Positions 2,083 through 54,446 of a DNA stretch of 64,000 nucleotides are shown in pieces; the stretch's first letter is position 1, and every line of letters begins with the position of its first letter. The stretch lies in NCBI RefSeq assembly GCF_055900595.2, contig NZ_CM148325.1. One strand, 5' to 3'. Position numbers and translations under genes: made by a program. The notes beneath the pieces are model-generated. The model saw only the letters and a list, made by a program, of their open reading frames with translations, had not been told where the DNA came from and made no database searches.

Positions 2083-2266
2083 AGTGGCTCATTCACCGAC
2101 TTATGTCAGCCCCTTCGGGACGTGCTACATAAAATTCGAATGACGCACAACAAGGTGCCTGCCGTCCAACTTCTGATATCAGCTTAGCTATATCAACCCT
2201 CGGGCGAAACGTCGAGTTAGGCACCGCCTTATTCCATAACAAAGCCGGGTTATTCCCGGCTTTGTT
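2083..2266 (+). ncRNA. glmY: GlmY small RNA
   Basis: Starts AGTGGCTCATTCACCGACTTATGTCAGCCCC, which matches GlmY from memory; about 184 nt; ends at hairpin agccggg/cccggct (2242-2260) plus T-rich tail; sits immediately upstream of glrK. Confidence 0.8.
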
Positions 2267-2324
2267 GTATCTGAACTTCCCCTCGGTTAGCATCAGGCTA
2301 TTCGCGTCTGACGAGAGTAACACC

Positions 2325-3752
2325 TTGAAACGCTGGCCCGTTTTTCCCCGCTCATTACGACAACTGGTAATGCTGGCATTTTTGCTGATTCTGCTACCCC
2401 TGTTGGTGCTGGCATGGCAAGCCTGGCAAAGCCTGAATGCGCTTAGCGATCAGGCGGCGCTGGTTAACCGCACTACGCTTATTGATGCCCGGCGCAGTGA
2501 AGCGATGACCAACGCGGCGCTGGAGATGGAGCGTAGCTACCGTCAGTATTGCGTGCTGGACGACCCAACTCTGGCGAAGGTTTATCAAAGCCAGCGCAAG
2601 CGTTACAGCGAAATGCTCGATGCCCACGCAGGCGTACTGCCGGACGATAAACTTTACCAGGCATTGCGTCAGGATTTGAACAATCTGGCTCAACTTCAGT
2701 GTAACAACAGCGGTCCCGATGCTGCTGCCGCCGCGCGTCTGGAAGCCTTTGCCAGTGCCAATACCGAAATGGTACAGGCCACGCGCACAGTGGTGTTCTC
2801 TCGCGGACAGCAGCTTCAGCGTGAAATCGCCGAACGTGGGCAATATTTTGGTTGGCAATCGCTGGTGTTATTTCTGGTAAGTCTGGTGATGGTACTGCTC
2901 TTCACGCGGATGATTATCGGCCCGGTGAAAAATATTGAACGGATGATCAACCGTCTGGGGGAAGGGCGTTCTCTGGGCAATAGCGTTTCGTTCAGTGGAC
3001 CGAGTGAGTTACGCTCGGTTGGGCAACGTATTCTCTGGTTAAGCGAACGCCTGTCATGGCTGGAATCCCAGCGCCATCAATTTTTAAGACATTTATCTCA
3101 TGAATTAAAAACGCCGCTGGCGAGTATGCGCGAGGGCACTGAATTACTGGCTGACCAGGTTGTCGGGCCGCTTACGCCCGAGCAAAAAGAGGTGGTGAGC
3201 ATCCTTGATAGCAGCAGCCGCAATTTGCAAAAACTGATCGAACAACTGCTTGATTACAACCGTAAACAGGCGGACGGCGCGGTGGAACTGGAGAGTGTAG
3301 AGCTGGCACCGCTGGTGGAAATGGTGGTTTCTGCTCATAGCCTGCCCGCACGGGCTAAAATGATGCATACCGACGTCGATCTCAAAGCAACTGTTTGCCT
3401 GGCGGAGCCAATGCTGCTGATGAGCGTACTGGATAATCTTTACTCCAATGCGGTGCACTACGGGGCTGAATCCGGTAACATTTGCCTTCGCAGCAGTTTA
3501 CATGGCGCGCGGGTTTATATTGATGTCATCAATACAGGCACACCCATTCCGCAAGAGGAACGCGCCATGATCTTCGAACCCTTTTTTCAGGGAAGCCACC
3601 AGCGAAAAGGGGCGGTGAAGGGCAGCGGTCTGGGATTAAGCATTGCCAGGGATTGTATTCGCCGTATGCAGGGGGAACTGTATCTGGTCGACGAGAGCGG
3701 GCAAGAGGTTTGCTTCCGCATTGAATTACCGTCGTCGAAAAACACGAAATAA
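2325..3752 (+). CDS. glrK: sensor histidine kinase GlrK (QseE)
   Basis: 475 aa from a TTG start at 2325 with GAGAG Shine-Dalgarno; N-terminus KRWPVFPRSL; HAMP, H-box (HELKTPL) and ATPase motifs; the upstream ATG in the ORF track has no ribosome-binding site. Confidence 0.9.
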   Translation: MKRWPVFPRSLRQLVMLAFLLILLPLLVLAWQAWQSLNALSDQAALVNRTTLIDARRSEAMTNAALEMERSYRQYCVLDDPTLAKVYQSQRKRYSEMLDAHAGVLPDDKLYQALRQDLNNLAQLQCNNSGPDAAAAARLEAFASANTEMVQATRTVVFSRGQQLQREIAERGQYFGWQSLVLFLVSLVMVLLFTRMIIGPVKNIERMINRLGEGRSLGNSVSFSGPSELRSVGQRILWLSERLSWLESQRHQFLRHLSHELKTPLASMREGTELLADQVVGPLTPEQKEVVSILDSSSRNLQKLIEQLLDYNRKQADGAVELESVELAPLVEMVVSAHSLPARAKMMHTDVDLKATVCLAEPMLLMSVLDNLYSNAVHYGAESGNICLRSSLHGARVYIDVINTGTPIPQEERAMIFEPFFQGSHQRKGAVKGSGLGLSIARDCIRRMQGELYLVDESGQEVCFRIELPSSKNTK

Positions 3753-3916
3753 TGTTAAGAGCCTATCCCATCAGGCTATTTTATTTGCCAGTTTGGCCCC
3801 GTGCAGTGCGCGAAATCATTACGTACTACGTGTACGCTCCGGTTTCTCCGCGCTGTCCATGTCCAAACTGCCTGCAACAATTACGCCCACTGGGGTAGGT
3901 TTTAAGTCTGGTGAAT

Positions 3917-4630
3917 ATGCGACACATTTTTCAACGATTATTGCCCCGACGGCTATGGCTGGCAGGGCTGCCATGTCTGGCATTGCTGGGTTGCGTGCAG
4001 AGTCACAATAAGCCAGCTATTGATACGCCAGCAGAAGAAAAAATTCCGGTTTATCAACTGGCTGACTATCTTTCTACTGAATGTAGCGACATCTGGGCAC
4101 TGCAAGGTAAGTCAACCGAAACCAATCCGCTTTACTGGCTGCGGGCGATGGATTGTGCTGATCGTTTAATGCCTGCGCAGTCGCGGCAGCAAGCCCGCCA
4201 ATATGACGACGGCAGCTGGCAAAATACCTTCAAACAAGGGATTTTGCTCGCCGACGCCAAAATTACGCCTTATGAGCGCCGCCAGCTGGTCGCGCGCATT
4301 GATGCGTTAAGTACCGAGATCCCGGCACAGGTTCGCCCACTGTATCAACTCTGGCGCGACGGTCAGGCGCTGCAACTGCAACTGGCGGAAGAGCGCCAAC
4401 GCTACAGCAAACTCCAGCAGTCCAGCGACAGCGAACTGGATACTTTGCGCCAGCAACATCACGTTCTACAGCAGCAACTGGAGCTCACCACCCGCAAGCT
4501 GGAAAATCTGACCGATATTGAACGTCAGCTCTCTACCCGCAAACCGGCTGGCAATTTCTCGCCGGATACGCCGCACGAGAGTGAAAAGCCCGCGCCATCT
4601 ACCCATGAGGTCACTCCTGATGAGCCATAA
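3917..4630 (+). CDS. qseG: outer-membrane lipoprotein QseG (YfhG)
   Basis: 237 aa; lipobox LLGC; coiled-coil Q-rich C-terminus; sits between the kinase and regulator genes. Confidence 0.85.
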   Translation: MRHIFQRLLPRRLWLAGLPCLALLGCVQSHNKPAIDTPAEEKIPVYQLADYLSTECSDIWALQGKSTETNPLYWLRAMDCADRLMPAQSRQQARQYDDGSWQNTFKQGILLADAKITPYERRQLVARIDALSTEIPAQVRPLYQLWRDGQALQLQLAEERQRYSKLQQSSDSELDTLRQQHHVLQQQLELTTRKLENLTDIERQLSTRKPAGNFSPDTPHESEKPAPSTHEVTPDEP

Positions 4631-51304: not shown

Positions 51305-52423
51305 ATGCATAACCAGGCTCCAATTCAACGTAGAAAATCAACACGTATTTACGTTGGGAATGTGCCGATTGGCGATGGTGCCCCCATCGCCGTACAGTCC
51401 ATGACCAATACGCGTACGACAGACGTCGAAGCTACGGTCAATCAAATTAAGGCGCTGGAACGTGTTGGCGCTGATATCGTCCGTGTCTCCGTACCGACGA
51501 TGGACGCGGCAGAAGCGTTCAAGCTCATCAAACAACAGGTTAACGTACCGCTGGTGGCTGATATCCACTTTGACTATCGCATTGCGCTGAAAGTAGCGGA
51601 ATACGGGGTCGATTGTTTGCGTATTAACCCTGGCAATATCGGTAATGAAGAGCGTATTCGCATGGTGGTTGACTGCGCGCGCGATAAAAACATTCCGATC
51701 CGTATTGGCGTTAACGCTGGATCGCTGGAAAAAGATCTGCAAGAAAAGTATGGCGAACCGACGCCGCAGGCGTTGCTGGAATCTGCCATGCGTCATGTTG
51801 ATCATCTCGATCGCCTGAACTTCGATCAGTTCAAAGTCAGCGTGAAAGCGTCTGACGTCTTCCTCGCTGTTGAGTCTTATCGTTTGCTGGCAAAACAGAT
51901 CGATCAACCGCTGCATCTTGGGATCACCGAAGCGGGCGGCGCACGTAGTGGGGCAGTAAAATCTGCCATTGGTTTAGGCCTGCTGCTGTCTGAAGGCATC
52001 GGCGACACGCTGCGCGTATCGCTGGCGGCCGATCCGGTCGAAGAGATCAAAGTCGGTTTCGATATTTTGAAATCGCTGCGTATCCGTTCGCGCGGGATCA
52101 ACTTCATCGCCTGCCCGACCTGTTCGCGTCAGGAGTTTGACGTTATCGGTACGGTTAACGCCCTGGAGCAACGCCTGGAAGATATCATCACTCCGATGGA
52201 CGTTTCGATTATCGGCTGCGTGGTGAATGGACCAGGTGAGGCGCTGGTTTCTACACTCGGCGTCACCGGCGGCAACAAGAAAAGCGGCCTCTATGAAGAT
52301 GGCGTGCGCAAAGACCGTCTGGACAACAACGATATGATCGACCAGCTGGAAGCGCGCATTCGTGCGAAAGCCAGCCAACTGGATGAAGCGCGTCGAATTG
52401 ACATTCAGCAGGTTGAAAAATAA
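51305..52423 (+). CDS. ispG: 4-hydroxy-3-methylbut-2-enyl diphosphate synthase (flavodoxin)
   Basis: 372 aa; C-terminal [4Fe-4S] Cys motif CPTCSR...C. Confidence 0.95.
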
Positions 52424-52533
52424 TAACGTGATGGGAAGCGCCTCGCTTCCCGTGTATGATTGAACCCGCATGGCTCCCGAAATATTGAGGGGCGCGTTGA
52501 GGGTTCATTTTTATATTCAGAAAGAGAATAAAC

Positions 52534-53808
52534 GTGGCAAAAAACATTCAAGCCATTCGCGGCATGAACGATTACCTGCCTGGCGAAACGGCCATCTGGC
52601 AGCGCATTGAAGGCACACTGAAAAACGTGCTCGGCAGCTACGGTTACAGTGAAATCCGCTTGCCGATTGTAGAGCAGACCCCGCTATTCAAACGTGCGAT
52701 TGGTGAAGTCACCGACGTGGTTGAAAAAGAGATGTACACCTTTGAGGATCGCAATGGCGACAGCCTGACTCTGCGCCCTGAAGGGACGGCGGGCTGTGTA
52801 CGCGCCGGCATCGAGCATGGTCTTCTGTACAATCAGGAACAGCGTCTATGGTATATCGGGCCGATGTTCCGTCACGAGCGTCCGCAGAAAGGGCGTTATC
52901 GTCAGTTCCACCAGTTGGGCTGCGAAGTTTTCGGTCTACAAGGTCCTGATATCGACGCTGAACTGATTATGCTCACCGCCCGCTGGTGGCGTGCGCTGGG
53001 TATCTCTGAACACGTAACTCTTGAGCTGAACTCTATCGGTTCGCTGGAAGCACGCGCCAATTATCGCGATGCGCTGGTTGCATTCCTTGAGCAGCATAAA
53101 GAAAAGCTGGACGAAGACTGCAAACGCCGCATGTACACTAACCCGCTGCGCGTGCTGGATTCCAAAAATCCGGAAGTGCAGGCCCTTCTCAACGACGCCC
53201 CAGCATTAGGTGACTATCTTGACGAGGAATCTCGTGAGCACTTTGCTGGTCTGTGCAAACTGCTGGAGAGCGCGGGTATCGCTTACACCGTAAACCAGCG
53301 TCTGGTGCGTGGTCTGGATTACTATAACCGTACTGTTTTTGAGTGGGTGACTAACAGCCTCGGTTCCCAGGGCACCGTGTGCGCAGGCGGTCGTTATGAC
53401 GGTCTGGTGGAACAACTGGGTGGTCGTGCAACACCGGCAGTCGGTTTCGCGATGGGCCTCGAACGTCTTGTATTGTTAGTTCAGGCCGTTAATCCGGAAT
53501 TTAAAGCCGATCCTGTTGTCGATATATATCTGGTGGCTTCAGGTGCTGACACACAATCTGCGGCTATGGCATTAGCAGAGCGTTTGCGTGATGAATTACC
53601 GGGCGTGAAACTGATGACCAACCACGGCGGCGGCAACTTTAAGAAGCAGTTTGCCCGTGCTGATAAATGGGGCGCCCGCGTTGCTGTGGTGCTGGGTGAG
53701 TCTGAAGTGGCTAACGGCACAGCAGTAGTGAAGGATTTGCGCTCTGGTGAGCAAACGGCAGTTGCGCAGGATAGCGTAGCCGCGCATTTGCGCACGTTAC
53801 TGGGTTAA
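52534..53808 (+). CDS. hisS: histidine--tRNA ligase
   Basis: 424 aa from a GTG start; class II aminoacyl-tRNA synthetase motifs. Confidence 0.95.
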
Positions 53809-53825
53809 GGAAGGAGAAGGACAGC

Positions 53826-54446
53826 GTGGAAATTTACGAGAACGAAAACGACCAGGTTGAAGCGGTTAAACGCTTTTTTGCTGAAAATGGCAAAGCACTG
53901 GCTGTTGGGGTGATTTTGGGCGTTGGCGCATTGATTGGCTGGCGCTACTGGAACAGCCATCAGGTTGATTCTACACGCTCCGCTTCTCTTGCCTATCAAA
54001 ATGCGGTTACCGCAGTGAGCGAAGGCAAACCGGATAGCATCCCGGCGGCGGAAAAATTTGCTGCTGAAAATAAAAATACCTATGGTGCGCTGGCTTCTTT
54101 GGAACTTGCGCAGCAATTTGTTGACAAAAATGAACTAGAGAAAGCTGCCACCCAGTTACAACAGGGATTGGCGGACACGAGCGATGAAAATCTCAAAGCC
54201 GTGATAAATCTGCGTCTTGCTCGCGTTCAGGTTCAGCTCAAGCAGGCTGATGCCGCGCTGAAAACCCTTGATACCATCAAAGGTGAAGGGTGGGCTGCCA
54301 TTGTTGCCGACCTGCGTGGTGAAGCATTGCTGAGCAAAGGTGATAAGCAAGGTGCGCGTAGTGCATGGGAAGCAGGCGTGAAAAGCGATGTTACCCCGGC
54401 ACTGAGCGAAATGATGCAGATGAAAATTAATAATTTGTCCATCTGA
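53826..54446 (+). CDS. yfgM: membrane-anchored periplasmic TPR protein YfgM
   Basis: 206 aa from a GTG start; one N-terminal transmembrane helix. Confidence 0.9.
   Translation: MEIYENENDQVEAVKRFFAENGKALAVGVILGVGALIGWRYWNSHQVDSTRSASLAYQNAVTAVSEGKPDSIPAAEKFAAENKNTYGALASLELAQQFVDKNELEKAATQLQQGLADTSDENLKAVINLRLARVQVQLKQADAALKTLDTIKGEGWAAIVADLRGEALLSKGDKQGARSAWEAGVKSDVTPALSEMMQMKINNLSI

What the first reader, a model, noticed from the sequence alone, without database searches (positions are those of the whole stretch)
2325..2327. Non-canonical start codons on regulatory and housekeeping genes
glrK appears to start at TTG (2325) 7 nt after GAGAG, while the upstream in-frame ATG lacks a ribosome-binding site. 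hisS (52534) and yfgM (53826) start at GTG. A TTG start on a sensor kinase fits low-level expression, and it sits directly downstream of the glmY terminator, which allows read-through control.
Basis: inference. Interest (0 to 1): 0.2.

Follow-up and report, generated by a model that had tools for sequence, protein, structure and literature searches.

The report
Known non-ATG starts: glrK, hisS, yfgM
The three unusual start codons are the real, already annotated starts of three ordinary E. coli genes, and the suggested control of glrK by read-through from the glmY small-RNA gene was tested and excluded in published work.

Summary
The window is an E. coli chromosome segment (purL-glmY-glrK/qseE-qseG-glrR ... 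hisS-yfgM-bamB).

**What holds up**
- TTG at 2325-2327 sits 7 nt after GAGAG (2313-2317), as described.
- GTG at 52534 (hisS) and GTG at 53826 (yfgM) are also present.
- All three are the annotated starts in K-12 MG1655 and RefSeq.
- The glrK site is TTG in 74 and GTG in 6 of 80 Enterobacteriaceae sequences, and never ATG. Codon-periodic conservation begins right after it.
- Three distant homologues start with ATG at the equivalent place.
- The hisS and yfgM GTGs are conserved in every related metagenomic locus examined.

**What does not**
- No upstream in-frame ATG exists. The only in-frame ATG is downstream, at codon 16 (2370), and 18 of 80 sequences lack it.
- Three non-ATG starts among 48 mapped genes is below the E. 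coli average of about 17%.
- Read-through from glmY is contradicted for E. coli K-12. qseEGF has its own weak sigma-70 promoter with a start 25 nt upstream (window 2300). Reporter fusions with or without glmY gave the same activity.

Low kinase expression is supported by the literature. Verdict: real, ordinary and already known. The one mildly new point is family-wide retention of a weak start codon.

The parts
2083..2266 (+). glmY small RNA gene. The Rfam match covers 2083-2230. The full K-12 feature, including the terminator, runs to 2266.
   Evidence: RF00128, 145.3 bits. (K-12 b4441 at 2691157-2691340, mapped through the glrK start).
2236..2268 (+). glmY intrinsic terminator hairpin: a 14-bp stem with loop UUAUU, followed by a U-rich tail.
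   Evidence: fold of 2083-2400, z = -4.2. The hairpin is conserved in the 80-sequence alignment. The simple terminator scan missed it because the T-run is interrupted.
2265..2270 (+). -35-like hexamer TTGTAT of the glrK/qseEGF sigma-70 promoter, lying in the tail of the glmY terminator.
   Evidence: Inferred from a 17-nt spacing to the -10 box and from the published promoter location 'immediately downstream of glmY'. It matches 4 of 6 positions, below the scan threshold.
2288..2293 (+). -10-like hexamer TAGCAT, inside the conserved box CTCGGTTAGCATC (2282-2294).
   Evidence: The box is conserved at about -38 from the start in nearly all 80 sequences. It lies 6 nt upstream of the published transcription start.
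2300..2300 (+). Transcription start of qseEGF, 25 nt upstream of the start codon.
   Evidence: PMC6075780. The numbering was checked: their -480 relative to qseE equals glmY -238 only if qseE +1 is the TTG at 2325.
2313..2317 (+). Shine-Dalgarno-like GAGAG, 7 nt before the TTG.
   Evidence: Columns -12 to -8 read G70/A64/G75/A68/G54 of 80.
2325..2327 (+). TTG initiation codon of glrK/qseE.
   Evidence: Annotated start in RefSeq PGAP and in K-12 NP_417051.2. T74/G6/A0 at the first base and TG invariant in 80 sequences.
2325..3752 (+). glrK/qseE coding sequence: 475 aa, a HAMP-HisKA-HATPase_c sensor kinase.
   Evidence: Precomputed Pfam domains of near-identical proteins.
2370..2372 (+). In-frame ATG at codon 16. 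It is the rival start chosen by some gene callers, giving 460-aa products.
   Evidence: ATG in only 62 of 80 sequences, and 12 of 80 have no ATG at codon 16 or 17.
2262..2267 (+). Two in-frame TTG codons that open the mechanical ORF (496 aa). They are not a start.
   Evidence: They lie inside the glmY terminator and upstream of the transcription start. Many other species carry in-frame stops between -12 and -57.
52423..52514 (+). sroE small RNA, ending 19 nt before the hisS start.
   Evidence: RF00371, 110 bits. K-12 feature b4761.
52534..53808 (+). hisS coding sequence starting at GTG 52534. AGAGA (52523-52527) lies 6 nt upstream.
   Evidence: GTG in 33 of 33 distinct metagenomic variants. 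PDB E. coli HisRS chains match residues 1-424 or 2-424.
53826..54446 (+). yfgM coding sequence starting at GTG 53826. AAGGAG (53811-53816) and AAGGA (53817-53821) lie upstream.
   Evidence: GTG in all complete related loci.

Best explanation
The three sites are genuine near-cognate initiation codons, already annotated, each read by initiator tRNA as fMet.

For glrK/qseE, the steps are:
- The mRNA starts at window 2300 from a weak sigma-70 promoter. Its -10 (TAGCAT, 2288-2293) sits in a conserved box, and its -35-like hexamer overlaps the tail of the glmY terminator.
- The leader is 25 nt and unstructured. It carries a modest Shine-Dalgarno (GAGAG) 7 nt before UUG 2325.
- The product is the 475-aa kinase. 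Its N-terminus, MKRWPVFPRSLRQLV, carries four positive charges ahead of transmembrane helix 1.
- A weak promoter, a modest SD and a weak start codon together keep the kinase very scarce.

Shown here or in the literature: the position of the start, the promoter and transcription start, the absence of read-through, and the low expression.

Inferred: that UUG itself contributes to the low level, and that it is retained by selection.

hisS and yfgM likewise start at conserved GUG codons behind SD-like sequences. In both cases the GTG is the first possible start of the ORF.
For: Annotation:
- K-12 and PGAP place glrK at the TTG, giving 475 aa.

Comparative evidence from 80 Enterobacteriaceae sequences:
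- The first base is T in 74, G in 6 and A in 0. TG is invariant.
- Conservation by codon position is 0.85/0.98/0.69 downstream of the start. There is no periodicity at -30 to -13 (0.44-0.55).
- GAGAG is conserved at -12 to -8.
- In-frame stops lie between -12 and -57 in many species.
- Codon 16 is not ATG in 18 of 80, and 12 of 80 have no ATG at codon 16 or 17.

Distant homologues:
- Three homologues at 38-40% identity, with the same kinase / small protein / sigma-54 activator layout, start with ATG 2-5 codons before the shared RPRSLxQLV motif.

Rate of change:
- On a neighbour-joining tree, the first base of the start codon changed 4 times, always T to G. Twenty-one fourfold-degenerate sites changed 7-30 times, mean 18.8.

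E. coli population:
- 3,886 of 5,424 genomes are identical over 2300-2359. The two variants inspected keep the TTG and the SD.

Literature:
- Transcription starts 25 bp upstream, there is no read-through, and expression is weak (numbering check).
- UUG and GUG initiate at 10-100% of AUG.

Structure:
- The leader shows no significant fold (z = -0.07 and +0.88).

hisS and yfgM:
- Both GTGs are the first start codon of their ORFs and are annotated in K-12.
- GTG is conserved in 33 of 33 distinct hisS variants and in all complete yfgM loci.
- PDB HisRS sequences span residues 1-424 or 2-424.
Against: - I found no direct protein-level or ribosome-footprint evidence for the glrK N-terminus. The supplements of two start-site mapping papers held no entry for glrK, hisS or yfgM.
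- Six of the 80 sequences, and one more distant genome (L209), have an in-frame ATG 3 codons upstream that may be the start there.
- Enterobacter species have a GTG immediately before the TTG.
- Many automated gene calls in public databases pick ATG 2370 instead.
- The parsimony comparison is rough. It ignores transition/transversion bias and codon-usage bias.
Confidence: 0.9

Rival explanations
1. glrK really starts at the in-frame ATG at 2370 (codon 16), giving a 460-aa kinase, and the TTG is an annotation artefact.
For: ATG is the preferred start codon in general. Many public gene calls give 460/462-aa products beginning MLAFLL or MMAFLL.
Against: - Codons 2-15 are under strong amino-acid constraint, and the motif FPRSLRQLV is nearly invariant.
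- The same motif is kept in distant homologues whose ATG lies upstream of it.
- Codon 16 is Thr, Val or Ile in 18 of 80 sequences. Twelve of 80 have no ATG at codon 16 or 17.
- There is no SD-like sequence before 2370.
- The protein would lose the positively charged segment ahead of TM1. That this matters rests on the positive-inside rule, which is established knowledge and was not tested here.
Confidence: 0.03
2. Both TTG 2325 and ATG 2370 are used, producing two isoforms of the kinase.
For: Both codons are in frame on the same mRNA in E. coli. Nothing in the sequence forbids internal initiation.
Against: There is no SD before 2370, and the ATG is absent in a fifth of the species. The short form would begin inside the first transmembrane helix.
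Confidence: 0.04
3. glrK expression in E. coli is set by read-through of the glmY terminator. The kinase would then be coupled to glmY promoter activity, which its own response regulator controls.
For: - The terminator ends only 58 nt before the TTG.
- glmY-qseEGF synteny is conserved (PMC3045617).
- In Proteus mirabilis the four genes are one operon driven by the glmY promoter.
Against: - In E. coli K-12, lacZ fusions from -70 and from -480 (the latter including all of glmY and its control region) gave the same low activity. Neither was affected by qseF or qseG deletions.
- RT-PCR showed virtually no read-through, and an own sigma-70 promoter with a start at -25 is mapped.
- A strong 14-bp terminator hairpin is present, and the -10 box is conserved.
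Confidence: 0.05
4. The gene starts further upstream at TTG 2262/2265 (496 aa), as the longest ORF suggests.
For: The mechanical ORF opens there. 497-aa calls exist for Citrobacter rodentium.
Against: These codons lie in the glmY terminator stem and tail, upstream of the mapped transcription start. The stretch shows no coding-type conservation and is interrupted by in-frame stops in many species.
Confidence: 0.01

Closest known systems
E. coli K-12 glrK/qseE (b2556, NP_417051.2), hisS (b2514) and yfgM (b2513) as annotated
   Same: The start positions and codons are identical. The window sequence from the promoter to codon 20 matches K-12.
   Different: Nothing relevant. The strain differs from K-12 elsewhere, for example in the sinH island at the end of the window.
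qseEGF promoter and expression as described by Reichenbach et al. 2009 and Gopel & Gorke 2018 (PMC6075780)
   Same: The promoter lies immediately downstream of glmY, transcription starts 25 nt before the start codon, there is no read-through, and kinase abundance is very low. The conserved TAGCAT box found here fits that start.
   Different: In the text I could search, the papers do not discuss the identity of the start codon.
Proteus mirabilis glmY-qseE-qseG-qseF operon (PMC8745638)
   Same: Same gene order, with an sRNA gene directly ahead of the kinase gene.
   Different: There, glmY lacks a Rho-independent terminator, no intergenic promoter was detected, and the genes are co-transcribed. 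E. coli has both a terminator and its own promoter.
Weak-start-codon genes of E. coli: cya (UUG limits adenylate cyclase synthesis), lacI (GUG) and infC (AUU, IF3 autoregulation). Recalled from memory except where cited.
   Same: A near-cognate start codon on a low-abundance regulatory protein. UUG and GUG give 10-100% of AUG output. The title and the opening of the abstract of a 2024 study link non-canonical start codons, in work on the E. coli lactose utilization operon, to context-dependent advantages in the mouse gut (PMC11445065, listed; only title and abstract start seen).
   Different: No experiment has changed the glrK start codon. There is no evidence for IF3-type autoregulation here.

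Membership tests
Bacterial near-cognate (UUG/GUG) initiation site | An NTG codon in frame at the 5' boundary of the conserved coding region. | tested here: met
   Codon periodicity and amino-acid conservation begin at the codon after 2325-2327. There is none upstream. The same holds for the hisS and yfgM GTGs, each the first start codon of its ORF and conserved.
Bacterial near-cognate (UUG/GUG) initiation site | A Shine-Dalgarno-like purine run 5-10 nt upstream. | tested here: met
   glrK has GAGAG 7 nt upstream, conserved across species. hisS has AGAGA 6 nt upstream. yfgM has AAGGAG/AAGGA 9 and 4 nt upstream.
Bacterial near-cognate (UUG/GUG) initiation site | The codon lies on the mRNA, downstream of the transcription start. 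| tested here: met
   The published start is 25 bp upstream, at window 2300, with the numbering verified. A conserved -10-like box sits at the right distance.
Bacterial near-cognate (UUG/GUG) initiation site | Direct evidence of initiation: an N-terminal peptide or an initiation-complex footprint. | not testable with these tools
   The supplements of two start-site papers had no entries for these genes. For HisRS, PDB chain 1HTT begins at Ala2, which is only suggestive.
QseE/GlrK-type sensor kinase locus | HAMP, HisKA and HATPase_c domains, with glmY-glrK-qseG-glrR synteny. | tested here: met
   Precomputed Pfam PF00672, PF00512 and PF02518 on 99%-identical proteins. Gene order.
sRNA-mRNA read-through operon (Proteus-type glmY-qseEGF) | No effective terminator after the sRNA and no promoter between the sRNA and the kinase gene. 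| tested here: not met
   A 14-bp terminator hairpin is present. An intergenic sigma-70 promoter is documented and read-through was excluded experimentally in K-12.

The most novel reading that the evidence does not exclude
The weak start codon of glrK is itself a selected trait of Enterobacteriaceae.
- After the ancestral ATG start (kept in distant homologues, and as an in-frame ATG at -9 in some genera) was lost or bypassed, the lineage fixed UUG.
- It has since tolerated only UUG-to-GUG changes and never ATG. This would keep the kinase far below QseG and QseF, so that QseG stays the limiting activator.
- If so, changing TTG to ATG should raise QseE and disturb glmY/rpoE control.
Probability: 0.4. 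Interest if true: 0.25.

Novelty: already known. Interest (0 to 1): 0.1.

Why it matters
It matters little for biology. These start codons are in the reference annotation, and non-ATG starts account for about one E. coli gene in six.

Two practical points remain:
- Public protein collections hold at least five different N-termini for this kinase: 460/462, 475, 481, 497 and 538 aa. The 538-aa version is translated through the glmY sRNA gene. The comparative evidence here shows which one is right.
- Family-wide retention of a weak start codon on a barely detectable kinase is a cheap, testable example of expression set at the start codon.

Tried and rejected
- **Start-site data.** I searched the supplements of a tetracycline ribosome-profiling paper (PMC4909307) and of a ribosome-signature/N-terminomics paper (PMC5576327). 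Neither held an entry for glrK, yfhK, qseE, hisS or yfgM.
- **TSS data.** The supplement of Kim et al. 2012 (PMC3415461) lists TSS rows assigned to hisS and yfgM. No glrK TSS appears in the stored part.
- **Primary promoter paper.** Reichenbach et al. 2009 is not held, so I relied on later papers from the same group.
- **Promoter scan.** The consensus scan found no sigma-70 site in 1750-2450. The real promoter matches only 8 of 12 positions, below that tool's threshold.
- **SD sequestration.** I considered a hairpin pairing the conserved box (CTCG/CTCA) with the SD (CGAG/TGAG). I rejected it because the box lies upstream of the transcription start at 2300, and folds of 2270-2390 and 2300-2375 are no better than shuffles.
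- **SigmaE-like promoter.** GAACTT at 2273-2278 looked like a possible -35. I rejected it because it is not conserved outside Escherichia.
- **Intermediate families.** I could not sample Yersinia, Serratia or Klebsiella systematically. The genome scan kept only the best 80 loci, and the protein searches listed only close relatives or relatives at 42% identity or less. One intermediate genome (L209) was examined.
- **hisS literature.** A search for the hisS GTG start found nothing relevant.

Full report
**Identity of the region**

- The window is an E. coli chromosome segment. An 801-nt query around the finding matched 5,425 of 5,426 complete E. coli genomes.
- The gene order is purL, glmY, glrK (qseE), qseG, glrR, glnB ... 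ispG, sroE, hisS, yfgM, bamB, der. It runs in reverse orientation relative to K-12 coordinates.
- Rfam places glmY at 2083-2230 (145 bits). The K-12 feature, which includes the terminator, maps to 2083-2266.

**Check of the observation**

- TTG is at 2325-2327 and GAGAG at 2313-2317, with 7 nt between them.
- GTG 52534 and GTG 53826 open the hisS (424 aa) and yfgM (206 aa) ORFs. In both cases the GTG is the first possible start codon after the upstream stop.
- One stated detail is wrong. There is no upstream in-frame ATG.
  - The mechanical ORF opens with two TTG codons at 2262-2267.
  - The 63 nt between them and 2325 contain no ATG in any frame.
  - The only nearby in-frame ATG is downstream at 2370, codon 16.
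- The 'theme' is not statistically unusual.
  - I mapped 48 K-12-annotated starts onto the window and found 45 ATG, 2 GTG and 1 TTG.
  - That is 6% non-ATG against roughly 17% for E. coli genes (figures quoted).
  - The binomial probability of three or fewer is 0.027, so the window is slightly poor in non-ATG starts.

**Annotation**

- RefSeq PGAP and K-12 MG1655 (b2556, NP_417051.2) both start glrK at exactly this TTG, giving 475 aa. Two divergent E. coli strains do the same.
- hisS and yfgM are annotated at the two GTGs.
- The finding therefore restates the reference annotation.

**Comparative test of the glrK start**

A genome scan returned 80 loci from different Enterobacteriaceae species at 77-99% protein identity. 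Seventy-nine of them cover the start.

- With the window included, the first base of the start codon is T in 74, G in 6 and A in 0. The TG is invariant.
- Downstream of the start, mean column conservation by codon position is 0.85, 0.98 and 0.69, which is the signature of coding sequence.
- Upstream, at -30 to -13, conservation is 0.44-0.55 with no periodicity.
- A conserved purine run GAGAG occupies -12 to -8.
- Many species have in-frame stop codons between -12 and -57, so an upstream extension is impossible there.
- The downstream ATG is not conserved. Codon 16 is Thr, Ile or Val in 18 of 80 sequences, and 12 have no ATG at codon 16 or 17.
- Residues 2-15 (KRW..FPRSLRQLV) are strongly conserved.
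- More distant homologues were found by an exhaustive representative search (38-42% identity). They keep the RPRSLxQLV motif a few residues from their N-termini.
- Three of these were inspected at the DNA level. They have the same kinase / small protein / sigma-54 activator layout and begin with ATG 2-5 codons before the motif.
- Together these results place the N-terminus where the TTG is. They also show that the non-ATG codon is a trait of the Enterobacteriaceae rather than of the whole kinase family.

Qualifications:

- Five sequences of the Buttiauxella/Cedecea/Dryocola group, and one other, have an in-frame ATG three codons upstream that may be the start there.
- Buttiauxella gaviniae has ATA at that place yet keeps the TTG.
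- A more distant Enterobacterales genome (L209, 57% identity, with glmY upstream) also has ATG at -9 followed by the conserved TTG.
- Enterobacter species have GTG immediately before the TTG.

A rough rate comparison:

- On a neighbour-joining tree, 21 fourfold-degenerate sites in the first 130 codons changed 7-30 times, mean 18.8.
- The first base of the start codon changed 4 times, always T to G.
- This suggests that GTG is tolerated and ATG is not.
- The test ignores transversion and codon-usage biases, so it is only indicative.

Within E. coli, 3,886 of 5,424 genomes are identical over 2300-2359. The two variants I inspected keep the SD and the TTG.

**Transcription and the read-through idea**

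- The intergenic alignment shows the conserved glmY terminator, then a variable spacer, then a conserved box (consensus CTCAGTTAGCATC; in the window CTCGGTTAGCATC at 2282-2294). The box sits about 38 nt before the start in nearly all species.
- Their numbering uses the TTG. Their fragment end at -480 equals the group's standard glmY -238 end only if qseE +1 is window 2325.
- The transcription start is therefore window 2300. That puts TAGCAT (2288-2293) at the -10 position and TTGTAT (2265-2270, in the terminator tail) at -35 with a 17-nt spacer.
- At 8 of 12 matches, the promoter falls below the threshold of the scan.
- The same paper reports the following:
  - lacZ fusions with or without the complete glmY locus gave indistinguishable low activity.
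  - The fusions did not respond to qseF or qseG deletions.
  - Earlier RT-PCR showed virtually no read-through.
  - qseE is weakly expressed.
  - A proteomics study counted 11 QseG and 36 QseF molecules per cell but could not detect QseE.
- An earlier paper from the group says the two-component system is 'transcribed independently' of glmY.
- Proteus mirabilis differs. It lacks the glmY terminator and co-transcribes glmY-qseEGF.
- The 25-nt leader and the early coding region show no fold better than shuffled controls. I see no structural regulation of the start.

**hisS and yfgM**

- A degenerate DNA pattern for the HisRS peptide [11 protein letters not shown] retrieved 120 metagenomic stretches.
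- All 33 distinct variants with enough upstream sequence have GTG 18 nt before the pattern, behind AGAGAATAAAC.
- In every locus that also contained a complete hisS (HisRS identity 0.88-1.00), yfgM begins with GTG behind AGGAGAAGGA. Thirty-two were matched automatically. The remaining ten or so complete loci show GTG GAA on inspection.
- Solved E. coli HisRS structures carry residues 1-424 or 2-424 of this ORF. Codon 11, the next ATG, lies inside the conserved RGMND motif, so it cannot be the start.
- For yfgM there is no in-frame ATG until near the C-terminus.

**Mechanism and confidence**

- I conclude with about 0.9 confidence that UUG 2325 is the glrK start.
- I also conclude that the kinase is kept scarce by a weak promoter, a modest SD and a weak start codon acting together.
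- The first part rests on annotation, comparative evidence and the published transcription start.
- The contribution of the codon itself is inferred from general measurements (UUG/GUG give 10-100% of AUG) and from its evolutionary retention.
- No direct N-terminal or initiation-footprint evidence was found.

**Novelty**

- The finding is already known.
- The only increment is the family-wide retention of TTG or GTG and the absence of ATG at this position, with ATG in distant homologues.
- Interest is low.

Noticed in passing
window 57713-64000: A sinH (57713-59887), sinI-family (59943-60935) and large adhesion-domain gene (from 61045, running off the window) island follows the yfgJ-like gene. 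It is absent from K-12, where xseA-guaBA follow directly. It matched in 1,749 of 5,426 complete E. coli genomes.
   Followed up: partly
window 2265-2300: The glrK/qseEGF promoter is packed against the glmY terminator. The -35-like TTGTAT lies in the terminator's U-rich tail, and the -10-like TAGCAT lies in a box conserved across 80 species. Several genera have 1-35 nt inserted between the terminator and the box, so their -35 element must be different.
   Followed up: partly
window 52423-52536: sroE (Rfam RF00371, 110 bits) ends 19 nt before the hisS GTG. A small-RNA gene directly ahead of a non-ATG start therefore occurs twice in this window, as glmY-glrK and sroE-hisS.
   Followed up: no
window 2140-2372 and proteins P0003, P0010, P0011, P0027 and P0066: Public protein collections hold at least five different N-termini for this kinase: 460/462, 475, 481, 497 and 538 aa. 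The 538-aa Citrobacter-type product starts at an ATG inside glmY and is translated through the sRNA gene.
   Followed up: yes
L070, L071, L077, L080, L083, L061 and L209, around -9 from the glrK start: An in-frame ATG three codons upstream of the conserved TTG (GAGATGAAGCTATTG) sits where E. coli has its SD (GAGAGTAACACCTTG). This hints that the start moved from an ATG to the TTG during evolution. Buttiauxella gaviniae (L075) has ATA there.
   Followed up: partly
L032, L037, L041, L042, L047 and L050 (Enterobacter group), -5 to +4 around the start: GTG lies directly before the TTG, giving tandem non-ATG starts. In 13 of 80 sequences an out-of-frame ATG at -5 forms a two-codon mini-ORF (such as ATG-CGT-TGA or ATG-TGT-TGA) that overlaps the start codon. 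E. coli lacks both features.
   Followed up: no
L206, L207 and L208: Distant GlrK homologues (38-40% identity) outside Enterobacteriaceae keep the layout of kinase, then a 180-200-aa protein, then a sigma-54 activator, with overlapping or abutting stop and start codons. No Rfam search for glmY was run on these loci.
   Followed up: no
window 3911-3919: The qseG ORF opens at GTG 3911, but the annotated start is the ATG two codons later at 3917.
   Followed up: no
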